From an uncultured Gammaproteobacteria bacterium (GTDB lineage Bacteria > Patescibacteriota > Microgenomatia > UBA12405), in the NCBI GenBank assembly GCA_964571775.1, contig CAZNDF010000001.1, forward strand, positions 1-26,628: DNA of 26,628 bases, written 5' to 3'. Below the pieces are notes generated by a model. It was not told where the DNA came from. It ran no database searches and saw only the letters and a program-made list of their open reading frames with translations. Of the stretch, positions 653 to 14,025 are shown piece by piece. The translations under genes and the position numbers were made by a program. Each line of letters starts with the position of its first letter. Position 1 is the stretch's first letter.

Positions 653-786
653 ATTTGTAATGCGGGGTTGGTAATGATGGGGCATTACCTGACACTTTTA
701 CTCAATACAAATGGAAGTGTGTCAGTAAAAATGAGGGTGAATCAGTCAATTGTTCATCGGCGAAATCTAACTATTCGGTTAAATAA
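653..786 (+). pseudogene. Frameshifted relic of the 4-Cys W-x-C module found in the neighbouring surface proteins
   Basis: Frame 2 gives ICNAGLV (653-673). Frame 1 gives NDGALPDTFTQYKWKCVSKNEGESVNCSSAKSNYSVK* (673-786), which matches YYKWRCDGINGGASVNCSAK of the 998-aa protein. No start codon found. Confidence 0.6.
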
Positions 787-847: not shown

Positions 848-1183
848 ATGGAGAGTACAACAAAAAATAATTGGAAATTATTAGTCGGTTTATCGATTTT
901 GGTTTTGGGTTTGACTTATGGGGTTCAAATGGTTCAAAAAAACCAGGAGAACAGGAGTAAGGCAGCAGAAGAGGTGGGGTTACAAAATACTGAAGTTGAA
1001 GAGGAGAGTGTGTGTGGTGAATCAAATGGTATGTTGGTTTCAGCAAGACCAATATTAGATCTATGTAGTAATGGACTACCTATTTGGAATGACTCTGTGG
1101 CCGAGGATGGAGAATATAACTGGTCTTGTGTGATTGAATCTAATAAATCAACTGTCAGTTGTAGTGCTTTTTTGGAAGAATAG
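848..1183 (+). CDS. Small membrane-anchored protein with one 4-Cys W-x-C module
   Basis: N-terminal hydrophobic helix, VQKNQENRSKA motif, then CGESNG..P..LCSNG..W.D..AEDGEYNWSC...VSCSA. Confidence 0.85.
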   Translation: MESTTKNNWKLLVGLSILVLGLTYGVQMVQKNQENRSKAAEEVGLQNTEVEEESVCGESNGMLVSARPILDLCSNGLPIWNDSVAEDGEYNWSCVIESNKSTVSCSAFLEE

Positions 1184-1827: not shown

Positions 1828-2883
1828 ATGGATTTGATTATATTTGTAATAGCTTTGTCAGTTTTAGTGTTAGTTCATGAATGGGGTCATTTCATGGCAG
1901 CACGAAAGACGGGCGTAAAAGTGGAAGAATTTGGATTAGGCTTACCTCCAAGAATAATTGGGAAAAAGATAAAGGGAACTATTTACAGTCTTAATTGGTT
2001 GCCGGTTGGCGGGTTTTGTAAACTTTATGGTGAGGATGGGGATGGTAAAGGGACTGATGCTTTCAATAATAAAAATCCGTGGCAAAAAATGTTGATAGTT
2101 TTGGGCGGGGTAATCATGAATTTAGTTTTGGCAGTGGTAATTTTTAGTGTGGTTTATACGATTTTGGGAGTTCCAGTTGAAACAGATAACGTCTCGATTA
2201 TTGGTATATCTCCAAACTCTCCAGCTGAAGAGGCTGGATTGAAAGAAGGGGATATTATTTTAAAGGTAAATGATGTTGAAGTTAAAAAAGCAGATCAATT
2301 AACTAATGAGGTTTTGAAATATAAAGGGAAAGAAGTTAGTTTAGTAATTGGTGGTGAAGGTCGTGATTCATCAATACAAACCAAAGTAAAGGTAAGAGAA
2401 AATCCACCAGAAGGCGAAGGGTCTATGGGAGTAGCAATATCAAATACAGAGATGATGAAAGTGCCTTGGTATCGGATAGATAAAGGGATTATGGCAGGGT
2501 TTAAAGAAGCCTATTATTGGGGGGAGATTATTTTTGGTGGAGTAACAAAGATGATTGGAGGGTTATTTATTGGTCAGGTTCCAAAAGATGTGAGTGGGCC
2601 AATTGGTATGTATGAGGCAACTAGCGCTATTAATAAGAATCAAGGTATTTTGGCAGTGATTCATTTTTTTGGAATAGTTTCAGTGAATTTAGCGGTGGTA
2701 AATGTTTTGCCTTTTCCAGCACTTGATGGAGGGAGAATAATATTTGTCATTTATGAAATGATTACAAAAAAGAGAGTGAATCAAAAAGTAGAAACAGTGG
2801 TGAACAATTTAGGAATGTTACTATTGTTAGGATTAATACTGTTGATAACAGTAGGTGATGTTTGGCGCCTTTTAGGGAAATAA
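1828..2883 (+). CDS. rseP: Site-2 intramembrane zinc metalloprotease (M50, RseP/RasP) with PDZ domain
   Basis: HEWGH zinc motif, GG...N, central PDZ (SPAEEAGLKEGDIILKVN) and NVLPFPALDGG. Confidence 0.95.
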   Translation: MDLIIFVIALSVLVLVHEWGHFMAARKTGVKVEEFGLGLPPRIIGKKIKGTIYSLNWLPVGGFCKLYGEDGDGKGTDAFNNKNPWQKMLIVLGGVIMNLVLAVVIFSVVYTILGVPVETDNVSIIGISPNSPAEEAGLKEGDIILKVNDVEVKKADQLTNEVLKYKGKEVSLVIGGEGRDSSIQTKVKVRENPPEGEGSMGVAISNTEMMKVPWYRIDKGIMAGFKEAYYWGEIIFGGVTKMIGGLFIGQVPKDVSGPIGMYEATSAINKNQGILAVIHFFGIVSVNLAVVNVLPFPALDGGRIIFVIYEMITKKRVNQKVETVVNNLGMLLLLGLILLITVGDVWRLLGK

Positions 2884-2914
2884 GGAATTTATTTTTTGGT
2901 TTTTATAATGGATC

Positions 2915-2952
2915 TTGATCTATTGACCTGGGTTTTTAAAAGTGATTAACTT
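2915..2952 (+). promoter_or_regulatory. Putative promoter, TTGACC...TAACTT, copy 1 of a duplicated upstream element
   Basis: TTGACC at 2923-2928 and TAACTT at 2947-2952, 5 nt before ATG 2958. 28/36 identical to 3372-3407. Confidence 0.6.
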
Positions 2953-2957
2953 ATCAC

Positions 2958-3296
2958 ATGATGAATAGATTAAATAACGCTAATAAAAGAGGTGTTTCTG
3001 GTGTTTTTTTAATAATTTCGGTTTTAGTTTTGGCGATAGCTTTGCCAGTGAGTGTTTTTTTGACCCAGAAAAATCAAGAATCTAGAAGTAAAGCAACAAG
3101 TGAGTCGTCAACTATTGGTATTTGTGGAAAATCAACCGGAGAATATTTCTCGGCCAAGCCGGCTTCTGGTTTGTGTGATGGCGGTGTTTTGGTTTGGACT
3201 GATGAAGAGGCAACAGACGGTGATTGGAACTGGACTTGTAAAGGTGATTTAGGGGTGGCTGATTCATCAGTAGATTGCTTGGCAGTGAAAGAATAG
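2958..3296 (+). CDS. Small membrane-anchored protein with one 4-Cys W-x-C module
   Basis: KRG followed by a hydrophobic helix, TQKNQESRSKA motif, then GICGKS...P.SGLCDGG..VWTDEEATDGDWNWTC...VDCLA. Confidence 0.85.
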   Translation: MMNRLNNANKRGVSGVFLIISVLVLAIALPVSVFLTQKNQESRSKATSESSTIGICGKSTGEYFSAKPASGLCDGGVLVWTDEEATDGDWNWTCKGDLGVADSSVDCLAVKE

Positions 3297-3369
3297 TTGT
3301 TTCCTTTTTTGGATGATTTTTTTTGAGGGGATTTGGTGTGAATTTTTTTTGATGGAGAAGGGAATTATT

Positions 3370-3407
3370 TTGATCTATTGACCCAATGTTTAAAAGGTGT
3401 TTAACTT
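3370..3407 (+). promoter_or_regulatory. Putative promoter, copy 2 of the duplicated upstream element
   Basis: TTGATCTATTGACC identical to 2915-2928, with TTAACTT at the same spacing. Confidence 0.6.
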
Positions 3408-3429
3408 TTTTATATTAAAAAAATTTACA

Positions 3430-6426
3430 ATGAAAAACTTAAGATTAACTGAACAGAGAGGAATAGCTCAAATTTTTTTATTGGTTGGCATGTTAGTGGT
3501 AGCAGTTTCTCTACCTTTTGCAACGAGATTAGTGCAACAGAATCAGGAGAACAGGAGTAATGCGGCTACTAAAAAAACGGCTGCATATTGTAACTCTAAA
3601 CTTACTAGAACGGCTTGTACAGATGATCCTGGTTGTTATTATTTTGCTGCTGGTGGTTTACTTGATAGCTATAACAAAGCTAATTGTATCCCATCGAGGA
3701 TTCGAGGTGAAGGGTGCTCCTATAGTAGTACGTGTTATGATGGTTTGAGTTGTAGGAGTGGTTTTTGTGTTAACTCTACTGATTGTGTTCATACAAGAGC
3801 AGGTAAAGTTGTTGCTAATGGAAGTAAACTTTGTTGGGATTGGGATATACATACATGTTCTAGTGGGGATTTAGAGAAGGGAGTGGTTAGCTGTAATACT
3901 TATTCTGTTAATAATCCGGATCGAGTTGGGTGTACGGGTAATACATCTGGCTCTTGTACTTTTTCGACCGCTTTAAAAAAGTCATCAGCTGCGCCAACAA
4001 CTAAACCTACGGCTACTCCAACACCGAGACCTACTTGTAGTTCTAAGGGTGGGGCTTGTATTGGTGGGGTAAGGACTTGTACTGATGTTGAAGGTGGTAG
4101 TGTAATTTCTGGAACTGATTGTAGTGGGACTACTCCTGTATGTTGTAAAGTGAAAGAGACTTCGAATAAATGTATCCTTGGTGATAAGTCTTATGATAAT
4201 GGTTTTAAATATTGCTCTGATGTTTATGGTCCTAGTCAATTAAAAACATGCAATAACGGAAGTTGGAGTACTGAGGATTGTCCGGGTGGTTGTCCTGTTG
4301 GTACTAGTAATTGTAGTAAAACTACCGTTCCTAAATGTACTAGTTACACTTATTCTGCTTGGTCGACTTGTACTAATGGAAAACAAACAAGAACTGTCAC
4401 AGGTAGAACCCCATCTGGGTGTTCAGAAAATACTGCAGGTTCAGCGACACTAGTAACTTCACAAAATTGTACAACTAAGGTTAGTTGTACTTCTAAGGGT
4501 GGGGCTTGTATTGGTGGTGTAAGGACTTGTACTGATGTTGAAGGTGGTAGTGTAATTTCTGGAACTGATTGTAGTGGGACTACTCCAGTGTGCTGTAAAG
4601 TGACGGAACCAGTTGGTGCCTGTAATAGTACGACTATAGCTAAGACTTGGTCTTCGGCTCCCAGTGATTCTCAAGCCTGTTCTTCAGGAAAGGTATATTG
4701 GGTAGATAAAGAAGCGACTGATGGTACTTACAATTGGAATTGCAGGGTTACTGGTGGTTCAACTGCTACTTGTGCTGTCGGTAAAACCGTAGCCGCCGGT
4801 ACAAAAGTTGATGGTAAATGCGGTGGGGCTATGGATGCAGTAGTCAAAACTAAACCGACTTCTGGTTTATGTGCGGCTGGTACAGCGAGTACAGTAACAG
4901 CAGGTACAGGGGTAACTTTATGGAAATGGACATGTGCAGGGGCTAATGGGGGTTACACCGCTACTTGTGTAGCGATATATAATCCTTGTAAGGCTGTTGG
5001 TGGTGATTGCAGGACTGTTTGTAGCAGTGATGAAGAACTATACAGTGGTGGTCGTGATGCTTGTAGCCCCGCTGTGTGTTGTAAAGTTAAATCTACAGTA
5101 ATTGCTAAAAAGGATGGAGTGTGTAATGTTAGTTATAATGGTAAAAGTGTAACTAGCAGACCGTCTGATGCAACTGCGTGTAGTACTGGTACTGTTTATT
5201 GGACTGATGTGAGTGCCACTAGTGGATACTATAAATGGCGATGCGATGGTATTAATGGTGGCGCTAGTGTAAATTGTTCTGCTAAAAATGATGTCAGCGG
5301 ATCTCCGGCAACTAATTCTTCGGCTTGTAAAGCTAAGGGTGGTGTTTGTGCTACTTATAGCACTGCTTTGAAGACTGGTGATTCGTGTAAGGTTAATGGT
5401 TATCCGAAATTTGGTAAAGTAGTGACCGGTTTATGTTCGGGTGATAGCAAGACAGTTTGTTGTACTGGGATTACGACTGTGGTGAATCCACCAGTAAATC
5501 CCCCTGTTAATCCACCAGTAGATCCCCCTGTTAATCCACCAGTAGATCCCCCTGTTAATCCACCAGTAGATCCTCCTGTTGACCCTCCGGTAACTGTACC
5601 ATCTACAAATATAACTTTGAGTCCACCCACTGTTACTTTGATTGTGGGTGAGACTAAGGCTATTGTGGCAACGTTGGAACCATCTAACTCGACAGATACA
5701 GTTACTTGGACAAGTAATAATTCAGCTATAGCGGCAGTTTCAACAAGTGGAGTTATCACTGGTGCTTCTGCTGGGTCAGCAGTAGTAACAGCAACGACTA
5801 CGAGTGGAAAAACAGCTACAGTTAGTGCAACTGTAAATCCAGCTGCGGCTGGTTCGGCTCAAGTATCTTTTAAATTTGCTTTCTTTGGAATTAAACCGGG
5901 AGCAGCTTGTATTTCTAGTTTGGAAAATTTAAATATTGAAGTGGCTAATGTTCCAACAAGTACTTATCAATCTGGTTTGAGTACTGTTTTTGCTAAGTTG
6001 GATGATGATCAGGTTGATGCAAACGGTAATCAAATATTCCAGGTGACAGCGTTGTCTTTGGATGCAACTAAGTTTGGAGCAGCCAATAATGCTAATTATA
6101 TAAAGATTAAAGGGCCTTTCCATTTGAGGAGAAGAATGTGTGCTGATGGTCAAACCTCTAAAGTTCCAGAAACTACCGTTTGTGATATTGACTTGACTAG
6201 AACTGACGGTCATATCTATGACTTTTCTAAATACACATTGCTTTCTGGAGATATTAATAAAGATGGAATAGTAAATGGAGCTGATTTTGGTCTAGTAAAA
6301 ACAGCTCTTGACTCTGATGATTCAGTCTCTTGTGGTAGAGATGGTGATTTAAATATGGATGGAGTGATTAATGGAGTTGATACTCAAATAATTAAAATAA
6401 CTCTACTTGAGAGAGATGACGAGTAG
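3430..6426 (+). CDS. Large Cys-rich modular surface protein (998 aa): TM anchor, defensin-like repeats, TSP1-like motif, W-x-C modules, (VxPP)9 linker, Ig-like Big_2 domain, C-terminal dockerin-like domain
   Basis: Domains read from the translation: YSAWSTC..GKQTR; VTWTSNNSAIAAVSTSGVITG; GDINKDGIVNGAD...GDLNMDGVINGVD. Start moved from GTG 3397, which lies inside the putative promoter, to ATG 3430. Confidence 0.85.
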   Translation: MKNLRLTEQRGIAQIFLLVGMLVVAVSLPFATRLVQQNQENRSNAATKKTAAYCNSKLTRTACTDDPGCYYFAAGGLLDSYNKANCIPSRIRGEGCSYSSTCYDGLSCRSGFCVNSTDCVHTRAGKVVANGSKLCWDWDIHTCSSGDLEKGVVSCNTYSVNNPDRVGCTGNTSGSCTFSTALKKSSAAPTTKPTATPTPRPTCSSKGGACIGGVRTCTDVEGGSVISGTDCSGTTPVCCKVKETSNKCILGDKSYDNGFKYCSDVYGPSQLKTCNNGSWSTEDCPGGCPVGTSNCSKTTVPKCTSYTYSAWSTCTNGKQTRTVTGRTPSGCSENTAGSATLVTSQNCTTKVSCTSKGGACIGGVRTCTDVEGGSVISGTDCSGTTPVCCKVTEPVGACNSTTIAKTWSSAPSDSQACSSGKVYWVDKEATDGTYNWNCRVTGGSTATCAVGKTVAAGTKVDGKCGGAMDAVVKTKPTSGLCAAGTASTVTAGTGVTLWKWTCAGANGGYTATCVAIYNPCKAVGGDCRTVCSSDEELYSGGRDACSPAVCCKVKSTVIAKKDGVCNVSYNGKSVTSRPSDATACSTGTVYWTDVSATSGYYKWRCDGINGGASVNCSAKNDVSGSPATNSSACKAKGGVCATYSTALKTGDSCKVNGYPKFGKVVTGLCSGDSKTVCCTGITTVVNPPVNPPVNPPVDPPVNPPVDPPVNPPVDPPVDPPVTVPSTNITLSPPTVTLIVGETKAIVATLEPSNSTDTVTWTSNNSAIAAVSTSGVITGASAGSAVVTATTTSGKTATVSATVNPAAAGSAQVSFKFAFFGIKPGAACISSLENLNIEVANVPTSTYQSGLSTVFAKLDDDQVDANGNQIFQVTALSLDATKFGAANNANYIKIKGPFHLRRRMCADGQTSKVPETTVCDIDLTRTDGHIYDFSKYTLLSGDINKDGIVNGADFGLVKTALDSDDSVSCGRDGDLNMDGVINGVDTQIIKITLLERDDE
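4036..4602 (+). repeat. Intragenic duplication of a 117-nt (39-aa) six-Cys unit at 4036-4152 and 4486-4602
   Basis: 112/117 nt identical by manual alignment; 4 synonymous changes and 1 Ser/Thr change. Confidence 0.95.
5482..5589 (+). repeat. Nine 12-nt tandem units encoding V(N/D)PP
   Basis: gtt aat cca cca / gta gat ccc cct alternation read directly. Confidence 0.95.
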
Positions 6427-6446
6427 TTATAATTTAAATAATAAAA

Positions 6447-7058
6447 ATGAAAGAAAATAAATTAATAAAAATACTTATCCCAATTGTGGCTATGATTGTG
6501 GTTGTGGAGAGTGTGGTGCTGGTTTCAAATTTGGATAAAGGTAATAACAATGTAGCTGACAGTAAAATTGAAGAAGTTGTTCCAACTGAAGGAGAACAAA
6601 AAGATGAATCGCCAGTGGCTGACTTTGTTTTTGCGACAGACACAAAAGAGATGAAGGTAGGGAAATCGTATGAGGTGGTTTTGAATTTAGTAGCAAAAAA
6701 GGATTTGGCTTTGGATGCTATTGAAACCTATGTAGATTATGATCCAAAATTAGTAACAGTATCGAAATTAGTCTCAGGCAATACTTTGCCAAAGGCTGAT
6801 GTTTCGAAGGTTGATGAAAAAAATGGCAGAGTTAGTACGGTGTTTTTGATTGATGATAAATCTGGCTATGTAACCAAATCAGATGAAATTAATAGAATTG
6901 TCTCTTTTATGGTGACACCAAAAGTAGAGGGACAGATTAATTTGGAATTGACTACTAGTAGTGATGATAAAAAACTTGTTACTATGATTGTAGAAACTGC
7001 TACGAGTAAGCAATTGACTTTCTCGAGCAATAAATTAGAGATTAATGCAATTAAATAA
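6447..7058 (+). CDS. N-terminally anchored cohesin-like domain protein
   Basis: TM helix, then beta-rich VGKSYEVVLNL...AIETYVDYDPKLVTV...IVSFMVTPKVEG pattern typical of cohesin domains. Confidence 0.65.
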   Translation: MKENKLIKILIPIVAMIVVVESVVLVSNLDKGNNNVADSKIEEVVPTEGEQKDESPVADFVFATDTKEMKVGKSYEVVLNLVAKKDLALDAIETYVDYDPKLVTVSKLVSGNTLPKADVSKVDEKNGRVSTVFLIDDKSGYVTKSDEINRIVSFMVTPKVEGQINLELTTSSDDKKLVTMIVETATSKQLTFSSNKLEINAIK

Positions 7059-7061
7059 GTC

Positions 7062-7742
7062 ATGAAAAAGACTGCCTGGTTACTAAATACTTTTTTAATT
7101 TTATTTTTATTAACAGCCTCAAGTGTTAAGGCTGCTGTAGCTGGGCCGCATTTGTTGGTAGATCCGTCGAGTGGTAACTATTCAGTGAATGGGACATTTA
7201 GTGTGACAGTAAAAATTGATTCAGCTTCGGAAGTGGTTGGAGCTATTGATGGTATCGGAACTTATGACTCTGATAAATTGGAGTTAGTTTCTATAAATAA
7301 GGCTCCTTCGATGGTTTTTGAGGGTATCAGTGGTGGGGGAAGTTGTACTGTCGAATCGGCTTCGGGAAGATTTAATTTCACTTGTTATTCTAATGATTCA
7401 TTATCAGATCAGTCTCTTAGTGGAAATTTAGTGGTGTTGAATTTTAAAGCTAAGGCTACTGGTACGGCGACGGTGAATTTTGTTTGTGCTAGTGGAAATA
7501 CAACTGATTCTAATATAATAAAGACTTCAAATGCAGTGGATGTGATTGCTTGTGGAGAGAATGTTGGAGGGTCTTATGTCATAGGTAACAGCACAGGTGG
7601 TGAGGATACTACTACTGCACCGACTAGTTCGACAACCACTTCTACTGAATTGCCTAAGACTGGTGGAGTAGGAGCGACTTTAGGTTTGATAGTTTTTGGA
7701 GCGATTAGTTTAGCTTCAGCAGTATTTTTGAAATTTCTATGA
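7062..7742 (+). CDS. Secreted cohesin-like protein with C-terminal LPKTG sorting signal
   Basis: Signal peptide (SVKA-A); VNGTFSVTVKID...YDSDKLELVSI...LVVLNFKAKATGTATVNF; Thr-rich linker; LPKTG at 7650-7664 followed by a hydrophobic helix. Confidence 0.75.
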   Translation: MKKTAWLLNTFLILFLLTASSVKAAVAGPHLLVDPSSGNYSVNGTFSVTVKIDSASEVVGAIDGIGTYDSDKLELVSINKAPSMVFEGISGGGSCTVESASGRFNFTCYSNDSLSDQSLSGNLVVLNFKAKATGTATVNFVCASGNTTDSNIIKTSNAVDVIACGENVGGSYVIGNSTGGEDTTTAPTSSTTTSTELPKTGGVGATLGLIVFGAISLASAVFLKFL

Positions 7743-8461
7743 AGAAGCTTAAGGTAAAAAATATTGTTATTTTTGGGGTTTTAGGAGTGGTAATGGTGTT
7801 GGTAGTAGTAGCAGTGAGTCAGGTTAGAACTTTTATGAGTGGAGCTTCAAGTGATATTGAACCACAAAATGTGTCAGCAATTCCGGGCGAAGATGGAAAA
7901 TCAGCAACAATCACTTGGACTTCTGATAAAGAGTCAATATCAAAAGTTGAATATGGAACAACAGCTGCAAGTTTAGTTTTGATGTCAGCAGAATCGGTGG
8001 CGGCAGTTAATCATAGCTTATCTTTATCTTCTTTGAGACCGGCAACAACTTATTATTACAGAATTAGAATAGGAGAGGAAGTTTTTGATAATGGTGGTGT
8101 TCCTTATAATTTTAAAACAAAAGCAGACGCGACAGCAGTCGTTTCACCTACATTAATACCAACAGTACCATTAACAACAACAAACAATAATGTTGCGTCA
8201 GGTGCGGGAATCGTATGTGATCCAAAAGCGGATTATAATAAAGATGGAGTAGTTACTGGTTTAGATGTGATGGCTTGTAAGGCTGATGGGGGAAAGGTGG
8301 CTGCAGTTACAACAACGACAACCCCAAAAATAACGACTACTCCGAAGGCAACAACGTCAAGTTCTCCAACTTTGGACTGTACTGGGAAAATCATTGATTA
8401 TAATAGCGATGGAGTAGTTAACGGGCTAGATAGAGTTAACTGTTTACAAAATCAGAGATAA
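7739..8461 (+). CDS. Membrane-anchored FN3/purple-acid-phosphatase-N-like protein with two dockerin-like Ca-binding loops
   Basis: SATITWTSD..S.SKVEYGT...HSLSLSSLRPATTYYYRI; DYNKDGVVTGLD and DYNSDGVVNGLD. Confidence 0.75.
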   Translation: MKKLKVKNIVIFGVLGVVMVLVVVAVSQVRTFMSGASSDIEPQNVSAIPGEDGKSATITWTSDKESISKVEYGTTAASLVLMSAESVAAVNHSLSLSSLRPATTYYYRIRIGEEVFDNGGVPYNFKTKADATAVVSPTLIPTVPLTTTNNNVASGAGIVCDPKADYNKDGVVTGLDVMACKADGGKVAAVTTTTTPKITTTPKATTSSSPTLDCTGKIIDYNSDGVVNGLDRVNCLQNQR

Positions 8462-8488
8462 TAGAGTAAAATAGGCAATCGTTAATTT

Positions 8489-14025: not shown

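What the first reader, a model, noticed from the sequence alone, without database searches (positions are those of the whole stretch)
3430..14025. Cohesin-dockerin-sortase surface complex, cellulosome-like but without cellulases
Seen: one contiguous block (3430-8461) encodes a dockerin-tipped 998-aa Cys-rich protein, a TM-anchored cohesin-like protein, an LPKTG-tailed cohesin-like protein and an FN3 protein with dockerin-like loops. A further dockerin protein at 12223 carries a phosphodiester-glycosidase domain. Established: Ca-dependent dockerin-cohesin binding assembles cellulosomes, and LPxTG is a sortase wall-anchoring signal. Inference: a modular plug-in platform displaying adhesins and a glycan-phosphodiester-cleaving enzyme, plausibly for attachment to or remodelling of a host cell surface by an episymbiont. 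Such domains have been noted in CPR genomes, but I know of no functional characterisation of the complex. No sortase gene is in this window.
Basis: partly seen in the sequence, partly recalled or inferred. Interest (0 to 1): 0.78.

Follow-up and report, generated by a model that had tools for sequence, protein, structure and literature searches.

The report
Minimal cohesin-dockerin surface display, CPR bacterium
A tiny-genome wastewater bacterium (Candidatus Shapirobacteria, CPR) carries a conserved four-gene cassette that looks like a stripped-down cellulosome anchor: one wall-anchored and one membrane-anchored cohesin "socket", plus a large cysteine-rich surface protein and three hydrolases of likely wall-acting kinds that carry the matching plug, but no cellulases.

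Summary
Window 3397-8461 is a tightly packed four-gene cassette:
- a 998/1009-aa Cys-rich protein ending in Big_2 plus dockerin;
- a TM-anchored divergent cohesin (CohA);
- an LPKTG-tailed cohesin (CohB);
- an FN3 protein with a conserved split dockerin.

A dockerin-NAGPA protein lies at 12220-14025, five housekeeping genes downstream, so the block is not contiguous.

What the tools added:
- All four strong dockerins in the genome sit in a ~190-aa X-module-dockerin (XDoc) dyad. Its model (pLDDT 94) matches only type II XDoc dyads of cellulosomal scaffoldins.
- The CohB model is a cohesin.
- The two XDoc proteins outside the window carry NlpC/P60 and a weakly matching 3D-like domain.
- The genome has two sortases and peptidoglycan genes.
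- The cassette keeps one housekeeping position, and CohB was found in 52 of 61 related genomes.
- A congener still has a two-cohesin scaffoldin; only its 3' relic remains here (655-786).
- Co-folding CohB with XDoc gave weak support (0.33, best control 0.01).

Verdict: a real, non-cellulosomal, sortase-anchored cohesin-XDoc display system, closest in logic to Ruminococcus flavefaciens ScaE. I rate it a new variant of a known kind. Binding, pairing and the enzymes' target (own wall or foreign wall) remain untested.

The parts
3397..6426 (+). Large secreted Cys-rich protein (1009 aa from GTG 3397, 998 aa from ATG 3430). Order of modules: leader with the VQQNQENRSNA motif; about 690 aa holding 60 Cys in repeated modules; a (N/D)PPV x9 linker (5485-5592); Big_2 (about 5605-5820); C-terminal XDoc dyad (5854-6423) with Ca loops DINKDGIVNGAD (6250-6285) and DLNMDGVINGVD (6346-6381).
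   Evidence: Pfam; translation; motif coordinates; XDoc alignment and HMM; XDoc model pLDDT 93.9 with matches to type II XDoc dyads.
6447..7058 (+). CohA: 203-aa protein with an N-terminal TM helix (invariant Glu21/Ser22), an acidic linker and a divergent cohesin module (about 6639-7013). Probably a membrane-anchored socket.
   Evidence: Pfam Cohesin 19.8 bits, below the cut-off. 22 of 45 orthologs hit Cohesin. The family profile hits the ScaC cohesin 5lxv at E 0.0015. 79 of 100 nearest Atlas clusters are cohesin families. Own conserved family of at least 109 clusters. Its fold was not modelled here.
7062..7742 (+). CohB: 226-aa protein with a signal peptide, a cohesin module (about 7182-7511, four invariant Cys), a Ser/Thr-rich stalk, LPKTG (7650-7664), a hydrophobic segment and a C-terminal K. 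Predicted sortase substrate, the wall-anchored socket.
   Evidence: Pfam Cohesin 34.9 bits. AF2 model with core pLDDT above 90; all top 50 PDB matches are cohesins. L, P and G of LPxTG are invariant in 48 homologs and T is above 90%. It is the only canonical LPxTG tail in the genome.
7739..8461 (+). FN3-Doc: 240-aa protein with a signal or anchor helix (conserved SGA site), an FN3-type domain (about 7862-8119), and two Cys-bracketed dockerin half-sites (8216-8278 and 8378-8443) split by a Thr-rich linker. Its start overlaps the CohB stop by 4 nt.
   Evidence: Pfam Pur_ac_phosph_N 37.9 bits; Dockerin_1 21.5 bits alone and 24.3 summed. Both loops and all four Cys are invariant in 5 orthologs, while the linker varies from about 9 to about 34 aa.
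12220..14025 (+). XDoc-NAGPA enzyme (600/601 aa): leader, N-terminal XDoc dyad (12364-12960), an acidic and PT-rich linker, and a phosphodiester-glycosidase domain (about 13477-13941) with the DGGGS motif (13906-13920).
   Evidence: Pfam; translation; motif coordinates. [quoted passage not shown] The gene is absent at the syntenic site in L010 and L011.
655..786 (+). 3' relic (last ~44 codons and the stop) of a secreted two-cohesin scaffoldin gene. The gene is intact in a same-genus genome (G028, 681 aa: leader, 2 CohB-like cohesins, Cys-rich and WxC modules).
   Evidence: The DNA alignment is about 93% identical over this stretch and shows no similarity upstream. The G028 protein scores Pfam Cohesin 59.4 bits in two stretches.
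848..1183 (+). 111-aa mini-protein with the same leader motif (VQKNQENRSKA) and one 4-Cys WxC module of the kind found in the large protein and in the G028 scaffoldin.
   Evidence: Leader scan; BLASTP to the G028 scaffoldin leader and WxC modules; identical ortholog placement in G028.
2958..3296 (+). 112-aa mini-protein directly upstream of the cassette, with a leader variant (TQKNQESRSKA) and one 4-Cys WxC module.
   Evidence: Translation; ortholog in G028 at the same position.

Best explanation
This is a minimal, non-cellulosomal cohesin-dockerin display system on the surface of a Candidatus Shapirobacteria (Microgenomates, CPR) cell.

Proposed mechanism:
1. CohB is secreted. One of the two sortases cuts it at LPKT|G and links it covalently to the cell's own peptidoglycan.
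2. CohA stays in the membrane by its N-terminal helix.
3. Proteins carrying the ~190-aa X-module-dockerin dyad are exported by a shared leader. They are the large Cys-rich Big_2 protein encoded next to the cohesins, and in this genome also a NAGPA-type phosphodiester glycosidase, an NlpC/P60 endopeptidase and a protein with a weakly matching 3D-like domain.
4. These proteins plug into the wall-anchored cohesin through the two Ca-binding dockerin helices. This mirrors how the ScaB and CttA XDocs plug into the sortase-anchored ScaE cohesin of Ruminococcus flavefaciens.
5. The FN3 protein, with its split Cys-bracketed dockerin, is the likely partner of the second cohesin.

Net effect: a putative adhesin and a small, exchangeable set of enzymes of kinds that act on wall polymers (peptide stems, glycan, sugar-1-phosphate links) are held at the cell surface.

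What is shown and what is inferred:
- Shown: domain identities, folds, motifs, presence of sortase and peptidoglycan genes, conservation, synteny.
- Weakly supported in silico: CohB-XDoc binding.
- Inferred: which cohesin takes which dockerin, and that the enzymes act outward on a host's or dead cells' wall polymers. I put outward action at roughly 50-60% against 25-30% for the cell's own wall.
For: - Domains: Pfam.
- CohB fold: all top 50 PDB matches are cohesins, including ScaE 2zf9 and the Coh-XDoc complexes 4iu3 and 5m0y.
- XDoc model: pLDDT 93.9. Its only significant Foldseek matches are type II XDoc dyads (5g5d_B at E 7e-6, then 5m0y_B, 2b59_B, 4wi0_B). In an independent all-PDB search, 3kcp_A (Z 11.1) and 5g5d_B (Z 10.8) stand clear of the next match at 7.4.
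- Ca-loop positions: both 12-residue loops read D.N.DG..N..D in this genome's XDocs, and most of these positions are invariant or at least 90% conserved in 76 XDocs.
- Co-fold of CohB 25-182 with XDoc: ipSAE 0.33 (runs 0.33, 0.29, 0.40) against a best control of 0.01, verdict 'weak support'. In the calibration the mark was reached by 58 of 80 solved complexes and 2 of 110 mismatched pairs, but a pass at 0.60 or under came from only 7 of those 80 and from both mismatches that passed. The interface lies on dockerin helices 1 and 3.
- Anchoring: two sortases above the Pfam and TIGR01076 cut-offs. CohB is the only LPxTG protein. Five PBPs and five Mur-ligase genes are present. Sortases were found in 61 of 61 relatives.
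- Operon packing: gaps of 20 and 3 nt and a 4-nt overlap.
- Conservation: CohB in 52 of 61 and XDoc in 57 of 61 genomes of the order. Synteny is identical in relatives 53-57% identical.
- Cargo in this genome: NlpC/P60 with Cys and His residues in place; a weak 3D-like domain (Pfam 14.3 bits, below the 23.8 cut-off; Ent wall-binding C-termini at E 2.5e-6, far below curated cut-offs); NAGPA with DGGGS.
- Cargo across the family is varied hydrolases.
- Precedent for an LPXTG cohesin binding XDoc: PMC5301203.
Against: - No binding has been measured.
- The co-fold pass is in the weak band, which the tool states is more often wrong than right unless the guess was likely beforehand. Families with solved complexes can also score from memory.
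- The third run placed the partner differently, sharing 0% of contacts with the other two.
- No X-module residue lies in the confident interface, unlike solved type II complexes.
- CohA is below the Pfam cut-off, was not modelled, and shows no significant profile similarity to CohB.
- The sortases reach no class threshold, so their motif preference is unknown.
- Most relatives have a single XDoc protein. The order-wide core function may therefore concern only the Cys-rich protein, and enzyme display may be a side development in a few lineages.
- The XDoc NlpC/P60 is the only NlpC/P60 above cut-off in this genome, which fits a housekeeping autolysin.
- The 3D-like call rests on sub-threshold matches only.
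- Expression evidence is only contigs from RNA libraries, which could contain DNA.
Confidence: 0.7

Rival explanations
1. The platform is the same, but it faces inward. The cohesins position the cell's own autolysins (NlpC/P60, the 3D-like protein) and a wall-polymer-trimming NAGPA enzyme on its own peptidoglycan for growth and division. In this reading XDoc replaces the LysM, SH3b or choline-binding modules that other monoderm bacteria use. The large Cys-rich protein is a structural surface coat.
For: - The XDoc NlpC/P60 is the only NlpC/P60 above the Pfam cut-off in this 82%-complete genome.
- The cassette sits among housekeeping genes and is inherited vertically across the order.
- The genome makes peptidoglycan.
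- The 3D-like domain weakly resembles the C-termini of wall-binding Ent proteins.
Against: - XDoc-tagged enzymes are lineage-specific and differ between genomes: NAGPA, metallophosphoesterase, MBL-fold, esterase, GH39. That is unusual for housekeeping autolysins.
- The NAGPA gene is a recent insertion.
- Most relatives manage with a single XDoc protein that carries no enzyme.
Confidence: 0.25
2. The modules do not pair with each other. The cohesin-like and dockerin-like domains are structural beta-sandwich spacers and Ca-stabilised helical modules with other partners such as glycans or host proteins, and their co-occurrence is not a plug-and-socket system.
For: - Binding is only weakly supported in silico.
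- Cohesin- and dockerin-like modules occur widely outside cellulosomes without demonstrated partners (own knowledge).
- CohA is highly divergent.
Against: - Two cohesins and two dockerin types are encoded in one translationally packed cassette. CohB was found in 52 and XDoc in 57 of 61 related genomes.
- The dyad matches only cohesin-binding type II XDocs.
- Controls with unrelated partners scored 0.00-0.01 against 0.29-0.40 for the real pair.
- A congener has a two-cohesin scaffoldin.
Confidence: 0.1
3. It is a true plant-polysaccharide-degrading cellulosome whose glycoside hydrolases lie on unassembled parts of the genome.
For: The genome is only 82% complete. One family member carries GH39 and GH79C domains.
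Against: - Only five dockerins are detectable in the genome, and none sits on a cellulase or hemicellulase.
- No multi-cohesin scaffoldin remains, only a relic.
- Of 50 proteins with a C-terminal XDoc, 29 have Big_2 and no enzyme family occurs in more than one (a GH20-associated domain and a hyaluronate-lyase N-domain, once each).
Confidence: 0.02

Closest known systems
Ruminococcus flavefaciens ScaE anchoring system (type III cohesin binding the XDoc dyads of ScaB, CttA and a cysteine peptidase)
   Same: A single-cohesin protein is anchored covalently to the wall through LPXTG and sortase. Its ligands carry an X-module-dockerin dyad. One ligand (CttA) is a non-enzymatic adhesion protein and another is a peptidase. 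The genes are clustered (PMC5301203). ScaE structures are among the matches to the CohB model (2zf9, 4iu3).
   Different: Here there is no multi-cohesin ScaB-type scaffoldin (lost, with a relic at 655-786), no cellulases and no CBMs. XDoc sits directly on enzymes, and at their N-terminus. The XDoc resembles the C. thermocellum type II dyad rather than the ScaB/CttA dyad with its three insertions. A second, TM-anchored cohesin and a split-dockerin FN3 protein are added. The host organism is a CPR bacterium of about 0.7-0.8 Mb.
Clostridium thermocellum / Acetivibrio cellulolyticus type II cohesin-XDoc (CipA XDoc with SdbA, OlpB and ScaC-type anchors)
   Same: This is the best structural match for the whole dyad: 5g5d_B, 5m0y_B, 2b59_B, 4wi0_B and 3kcp_A, Z about 11 over 146 residues. 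In both systems the dyad serves attachment to a wall-bound cohesin.
   Different: Sequence identity is only 16-18%. Here the dyad has four conserved Cys. The anchor uses LPXTG and sortase rather than SLH domains. The dyad is carried by enzymes and an adhesin-like protein, not by a primary scaffoldin. X-module contact with the cohesin was not seen in the co-fold.
Ruminococcus bromii amylosome
   Same: A cohesin-dockerin system with non-cellulase cargo and scaffoldins that carry C-terminal sortase signals (Sca2, Sca5). Dockerin binding to cells depends on Ca (PMC5814915).
   Different: The amylosome cargo is amylases, and its scaffoldins hold several cohesins or are themselves enzymes. It has no XDoc dyad of this kind.
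Clostridium perfringens NagH/NagJ cohesin-dockerin complexes
   Same: A non-cellulosomal cohesin-dockerin pairing that joins secreted glycoside hydrolases acting on another organism's surface glycans. The dockerin of 2ozn_B matches the dockerin part of the model at Z 7.4.
   Different: In C. perfringens the cohesins and dockerins sit on the enzymes themselves, giving enzyme-enzyme complexes. There is no dedicated sortase-anchored single-cohesin protein and no X-module dyad. The function statement here rests on my own knowledge and the PDB title only.

Membership tests
Cohesin-dockerin assembly system (cellulosome-type) | Cohesin module with the nine-stranded beta-sandwich (jelly-roll) cohesin fold | tested here: met
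   CohB: Pfam 34.9 bits, above 24.1; all top 50 PDB matches of the AF2 model are cohesins, TM up to 0.79 by target length. CohA: by sequence only; its fold was not modelled.
Cohesin-dockerin assembly system (cellulosome-type) | Dockerin with two duplicated Ca-binding loop-helix segments (D.N.DG..N..D) | tested here: met
   Four proteins score above the Pfam cut-off. Both loops are intact, and most loop positions are invariant or at least 90% conserved in 76 homologs. The FN3 protein has an atypical split version, 21.5 bits alone and 24.3 summed.
Cohesin-dockerin assembly system (cellulosome-type) | Specific, Ca-dependent cohesin-dockerin binding | tested here: inconclusive
   Co-fold of CohB with XDoc: ipSAE 0.33 against a best control of 0.01, 'weak support'. 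The mark was reached by 58 of 80 solved complexes and 2 of 110 mismatches, but at 0.60 or under by only 7 of those 80 and by both mismatches that passed.
Cellulosome in the strict sense | Scaffoldin with multiple cohesins that integrates dockerin-bearing plant-cell-wall glycoside hydrolases, usually with a CBM | tested here: not met
   This genome has only two single-cohesin proteins. The two-cohesin scaffoldin of a congener survives here only as a relic. No cellulase, hemicellulase or CBM occurs among the five dockerin proteins.
Type II-like X-module-dockerin (XDoc) dyad | An Ig-like X module packed directly against the dockerin, forming one structural unit | tested here: met
   AF2 model pLDDT 93.9, pTM 0.89. 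The whole-dyad matches are only to XDocs of CipA, CipB and ScaA.
Type II-like X-module-dockerin (XDoc) dyad | The X module contributes contacts to the cohesin | tested here: not met
   Confident interface residues (135-152 and 177-185 of the dyad) all lie in the dockerin. This comes from a weak in-silico model only.
Sortase-anchored surface protein | C-terminal LPXTG, a hydrophobic segment and a positively charged tail | tested here: met
   CohB ends ...ELPKTGGVGATLGLIVFGAISLASAVFLKFL. L, P and G are invariant and T is above 90% in 48 homologs. The Pfam Gram_pos_anchor hit is only 15.2 bits, below the cut-off of 20.
Sortase-anchored surface protein | A sortase and a peptidoglycan acceptor in the same genome | tested here: met
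   Two sortases at 91 and 64.5 bits, with TLVTC and VLQTC motifs. Five PBPs and five Mur-ligase genes. The sortase class is unassigned.
NAGPA / phosphodiester glycosidase (PF09992) | Domain above the gathering score and the catalytic DGGGS motif | tested here: met
   40 bits, above 25. DGGGS lies at residues 563-567, nt 13906-13920. Its role is described in PMC13474241. The substrate is unknown.
NlpC/P60 peptidoglycan endopeptidase | Domain above the gathering score with the catalytic Cys and His | tested here: met
   Contig 10 protein: 47.6 bits, above 23. It resembles RipB at E 2.8e-11. The motifs GLDCSGF and GNHIGIF are present. Activity was not tested.
3D domain (PF06725) | Domain above the gathering score | tested here: not met
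   Contig 2 protein: 14.3 bits at E 0.049, below the 23.8 cut-off. The NCBIfam matches to the C-termini of Ent wall-binding proteins (best E 2.5e-6, 26.9 bits) are far below their curated cut-offs of 560-780 bits. I treat this cargo as 3D-like only.

The most novel reading that the evidence does not exclude
The cassette encodes the host-attachment and feeding organelle of these Microgenomates. In this reading the fast-evolving Cys-rich XDoc protein is the host-specific adhesin, held with very high mechanical strength on a sortase-anchored cohesin. The exchangeable XDoc hydrolases (NlpC/P60, the 3D-like protein, the NAGPA-type phosphodiester glycosidase) locally open the host's peptidoglycan and teichoic-acid-like polymers at the contact site. 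It would be a 'cellulosome' repurposed against a living cell wall, inherited vertically across a whole CPR order.
Probability: 0.2. Interest if true: 0.85.

Novelty: new variant of a known kind. Interest (0 to 1): 0.55.

Why it matters
How CPR bacteria with 0.6-1 Mb genomes attach to and draw resources from other cells is largely unknown outside Saccharibacteria.

This is a compact surface module found in nearly every genome sampled from one order of Microgenomates, and it is directly testable. It has two sockets and two plug types. It also has a variable Cys-rich protein that could determine partner specificity, and in some lineages enzymes of wall-acting kinds that use the same plug.

It also shows that the type II XDoc and sortase-cohesin anchoring logic, known from cellulolytic Firmicutes, exists in reduced form in a distant phylum with non-cellulolytic cargo. 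The congener that keeps a two-cohesin scaffoldin, lost here, gives a snapshot of the system being simplified.

In practical terms, the small disulfide-bearing cohesin-XDoc pair could serve as an orthogonal protein-assembly part.

If binding fails, the finding reduces to domain annotation that NCBI already gives ('cohesin domain-containing protein').

Tried and rejected
- hhalign of the CohA family against the CohB family: insignificant (probability 0.9%). The two cohesins are not recent duplicates, and this could not be used to support CohA.
- Profile searches of PDB sequences: CohA hits one cohesin at E 0.0015; CohB finds nothing significant. Fold comparison was needed.
- NCBIfam: no family for the large protein, CohA, FN3-Doc or NAGPA, and no sortase class reached.
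- Promoter and terminator scan of 2800-8800: 13 promoter-like sites against 16.4 expected, and no convincing terminator after 8461. Uninformative for this AT-rich CPR genome.
- Word-indexed homolog search with the XDoc region: only 4 hits and no names. The exhaustive profile search was the useful one.
- Literature: searches for cohesin/dockerin with 'candidate phyla radiation' or 'Microgenomates' found no description of this cassette. The held library is limited, so this is not proof of absence.
- Complex prediction: weak support only. I do not count it as evidence of binding on its own. The disagreement of run 3 might reflect a dual binding mode, but I could not test that and make no claim.
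- RNA-library contigs show presence in metatranscriptome libraries from close strains, not proven transcription.
- Strict cellulosome rejected: no multi-cohesin scaffoldin, no cellulases, no CBM.

Full report
**1. What is in the sequence**

The window is contig 1 of a 660,645-bp assembly in 99 contigs, 82% complete. GC is about 35% and the window is dense with housekeeping genes: tsf, frr, rseP, rpsU, yqeY, ybeY, dnaX, recR, cysS, rpsF, ssb. Source names on homologs (Candidatus Shapirobacteria, Woesebacteria) and an earlier scan note place it in the Microgenomates group of the CPR. Near-identical DNA occurs in wastewater, bioreactor and digester metagenomes.

Between rseP and rpsU lie four co-oriented genes with gaps of 20 nt and 3 nt and a 4-nt overlap:
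- **3397/3430-6426.** A leader, then about 690 residues holding 60 cysteines in repeated modules, a (N/D)PPV x9 linker, Big_2, and a C-terminal dockerin.
- **6447-7058 (CohA).** An N-terminal TM helix and a cohesin hit at 19.8 bits, below Pfam's cut-off of 24.1.
- **7062-7742 (CohB).** Cohesin at 34.9 bits, a Ser/Thr stalk, LPKTG, a hydrophobic tail and a terminal K.
- **7739-8461.** An FN3-type domain and two dockerin half-sites.

Five housekeeping genes further on, 12220-14025 encodes a leader, a dockerin, a linker and a NAGPA domain.

**2. The dockerins are X-module-dockerin dyads, and the cargo extends beyond the window**

The genome holds exactly two cohesins, both in the cassette, and five dockerins. 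The two dockerin proteins outside the window are on contig 2 (382 aa) and contig 10 (536 aa).

All four strong dockerins are preceded by a conserved module of about 130 aa. Together they form a unit of about 190 aa with four conserved Cys. An HMM of the module finds only these four in the genome.

The AF2 model of the unit is very confident (pLDDT 93.9, pTM 0.89).
- By Foldseek, its only significant PDB matches are the type II XDoc dyads of CipA, CipB and ScaA (E 7e-6 to 1e-4, about 186-194 aligned columns).
- In a Foldseek-independent scan of 48,161 chains, 3kcp_A (Z 11.1) and 5g5d_B (Z 10.8) stand well above the next match at 7.4, which covers the dockerin alone.

Both Ca loops read D.N.DG..N..D in this genome's XDocs, and most of these positions are invariant or at least 90% conserved across 76 family members.

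Cargo in this genome:
- NAGPA, with the DGGGS motif at 13906-13920. This motif is critical in human NAGPA (PMC13474241).
- NlpC/P60 at 47.6 bits, RipB-like, with its Cys and His motifs present.
- A weak 3D-like domain. Pfam gives 14.3 bits, below the 23.8 cut-off. The matches to the C-termini of B. cereus Ent wall-binding proteins reach E 2.5e-6 but are far below curated cut-offs. I treat this one as a lead only.

In these three enzymes the XDoc is N-terminal, right after the leader. In the large protein it is C-terminal.

**3. The sockets**

The CohB model (48-sequence alignment; core pLDDT above 90) matches only cohesins among its top 50 PDB hits. These include type I, II and III cohesins, the sortase-anchored ScaE, and cohesins solved in complex with XDoc.

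CohA rests on sequence evidence only. Of 45 orthologs, 22 hit Pfam Cohesin (best E 6.5e-9). The family profile's top PDB hit is the ScaC cohesin 5lxv (E 0.0015). In the ESM Atlas, 79 of its 100 nearest clusters are cohesin families. It shows no significant profile similarity to CohB, so the two are old, distinct cohesin types. Its TM helix carries an invariant Glu-Ser pair, which suggests a retained anchor rather than a cleaved signal peptide (inference).

**4. Anchoring**

- The genome has two intact sortases above the Pfam and TIGR01076 cut-offs, with TLVTC and VLQTC motifs, though neither reaches a class threshold.
- CohB is the only canonical LPxTG protein. Two others end in IPKTG and IPETG.
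- The L, P and G of LPxTG are invariant, and T is above 90%, in 48 CohB homologs.
- Five PBPs and five Mur-ligase genes show that the cell makes peptidoglycan.
- All 61 sampled relatives have sortases.

**5. Binding**

One co-fold was possible: CohB 25-182 with the XDoc of the adjacent large protein, each with its own alignment. The three runs scored ipSAE 0.33, 0.29 and 0.40, and the best of three controls scored 0.01. The verdict was 'weak support'.

In the tool's calibration the mark was reached by 58 of 80 solved complexes and 2 of 110 mismatches. A pass at 0.60 or under, however, came from only 7 of those 80 and from both mismatches that passed.

The confident interface uses dockerin helices 1 and 3 and one face of the cohesin, with no X-module residues. 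Runs 1 and 2 share 95% of contacts and run 3 shares none. Because solved cohesin-dockerin complexes exist, the score may partly reflect memory. I read it as compatible with binding, not as proof. The prior is raised by gene adjacency, co-conservation and the ScaE precedent.

**6. Conservation and evolution**

- CohB has at least 148 homolog clusters at 90% identity and CohA at least 109.
- Relatives whose CohB is only 53-57% identical keep the same order: rseP, large dockerin protein, CohA, CohB, FN3-Doc, rpsU, yqeY, ybeY, dnaX. The NAGPA gene is missing at the recR junction in both.
- CohB was found in 52 of 61 sampled genomes of the order (16 of 17 genera) and XDoc in 57 of 61.
- Most genomes have a single XDoc protein. 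This genome has four and a few others have three to five. Enzyme tagging is therefore a lineage-level expansion on an order-wide core made of the Cys-rich protein, two cohesins and FN3-Doc.
- Family-wide, proteins with an N-terminal XDoc carry varied hydrolases: NAGPA 3, metallophosphoesterase 3, MBL-fold 2, then NlpC/P60, esterases and GH39. Proteins with a C-terminal XDoc mostly carry Big_2 and unannotated Cys-rich regions.
- The FN3 protein's two Cys-bracketed DYNxDG loops are invariant in five orthologs, while the linker varies from about 9 to about 34 residues.

A same-genus genome (G028) has a 681-aa protein between tsf and the 111-aa ORF. It has the same leader, two CohB-like cohesins and Cys-rich WxC modules. 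Window 655-786 is about 93% identical in DNA to the last ~130 nt of that gene, with no similarity upstream. This genome has therefore lost a two-cohesin scaffoldin and kept a 3' relic. Another congener has a 565-aa Big_2-cohesin protein next to frr.

**7. How it most likely works**

See Best explanation. In short:
1. CohB is wall-anchored by sortase and CohA is membrane-anchored.
2. XDoc proteins plug in through Ca-dependent dockerin helices.
3. FN3-Doc probably serves the second cohesin.

The result is surface display of a variable Cys-rich putative adhesin and a small exchangeable set of enzymes of kinds that cut peptide stems, glycan strands and sugar-1-phosphate links.

Whether the substrate is a host's wall, dead-cell wall material in sludge, or the cell's own wall is not decidable here. 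Variable, lineage-specific cargo argues for an outward role. The fact that the XDoc NlpC/P60 is the only one above cut-off in the genome argues for housekeeping.

**8. Comparison with what is known**

The logic is that of R. flavefaciens ScaE, an LPXTG/sortase-anchored single cohesin that binds the XDoc dyads of ScaB, of the adhesion protein CttA and of a cysteine peptidase (PMC5301203). The dyad's structure is closest to the C. thermocellum type II XDoc. Non-cellulase precedents are the R. bromii amylosome (PMC5814915) and the C. perfringens NagH/NagJ complexes (PDB 2ozn).

It is not a cellulosome in the strict sense, because it has no multi-cohesin scaffoldin, no cellulases and no CBM.

I found no paper describing this cassette in CPR. 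Public annotation already labels the proteins 'cohesin domain-containing' or 'LPXTG-motif cell wall-anchored'.

**9. Verdict**

I classify it as a new variant of a known kind and rate interest as moderate (0.55). The domains and the anchoring logic are known. The phylogenetic setting, the order-wide conservation, the hydrolase cargo, the second cohesin with a split dockerin and the scaffoldin loss are new. Function and binding remain untested.

Weak expression evidence exists: contigs from two wastewater metatranscriptome libraries, 92-97% alike, cover CohA, CohB and FN3-Doc. DNA carry-over cannot be excluded.

Noticed in passing
window 655-786 (and L012:2135-4180): 3' relic of a two-cohesin secreted scaffoldin gene. 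The intact 681-aa gene sits at the same tsf/frr position in same-genus genome G028. DNA is about 93% identical over the relic and similarity ends abruptly upstream.
   Followed up: yes
window 3430-3570, 12223-12360, 848-985, 2958-3100; L006:961-1090; L007:946-1110: Six secreted proteins of this genome share a leader: a hydrophobic helix followed by (V/T)Q(K/Q)xQ(E/D)(N/S)RSxA. It may be a conserved signal-peptidase region or a dedicated sorting signal. It matches no NCBIfam or Pfam model.
   Followed up: partly
window 848-1183 and 2958-3296: Two mini-proteins (111 and 112 aa) consist only of that leader plus one 4-Cys 'WxC' module. The same module is repeated in the large XDoc protein and in the G028 scaffoldin. 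Both are conserved in position in G028.
   Followed up: partly
window 12220-14025: The XDoc-NAGPA gene is absent between recR and the ~170-180-aa ORF in two syntenic relatives (L010, L011), so it is a lineage-specific insertion into a housekeeping array. A second NAGPA-domain ORF without a dockerin lies at G000:C28:4332-4838 (905-aa frame).
   Followed up: partly
window 6447-6540: CohA's TM helix has an invariant Glu21-Ser22 in 45 orthologs. A charged residue conserved inside a membrane helix suggests an interaction with another membrane protein.
   Followed up: no
window 5485-5592: A 36-residue (N/D)PPV x9 repeat forms a rigid proline linker between the Cys-rich region and Big_2. The reverse strand of this region gives a spurious 119-aa ORF (5400-5759).
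   Followed up: no
G000:C5:15062-16330 and G000:C91:747-1385: Two further proteins have sortase-type tails with IPKTG and IPETG instead of LPxTG: a 422-aa protein with FN3-like repeats and a 212-aa protein. With two sortases in the genome, this may reflect two substrate classes.
   Followed up: no
window 6343-8800 (runs X17, X18): Contigs from two wastewater metatranscriptome libraries, 92-97% alike, cover CohA, CohB, FN3-Doc and rpsU/yqeY but almost none of the large gene. One 899-nt contig spans the CohB/FN3-Doc junction. This shows presence in an RNA library only, not proven transcription.
   Followed up: partly
L013:10035-11732 (-), G022: Another congener encodes a 565-aa Big_2 + cohesin protein next to frr. 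Larger ORFs with CohB-like cohesins (747-1102-aa frames) occur in G003, G007 and G032, so scaffoldin content varies within the genus.
   Followed up: partly
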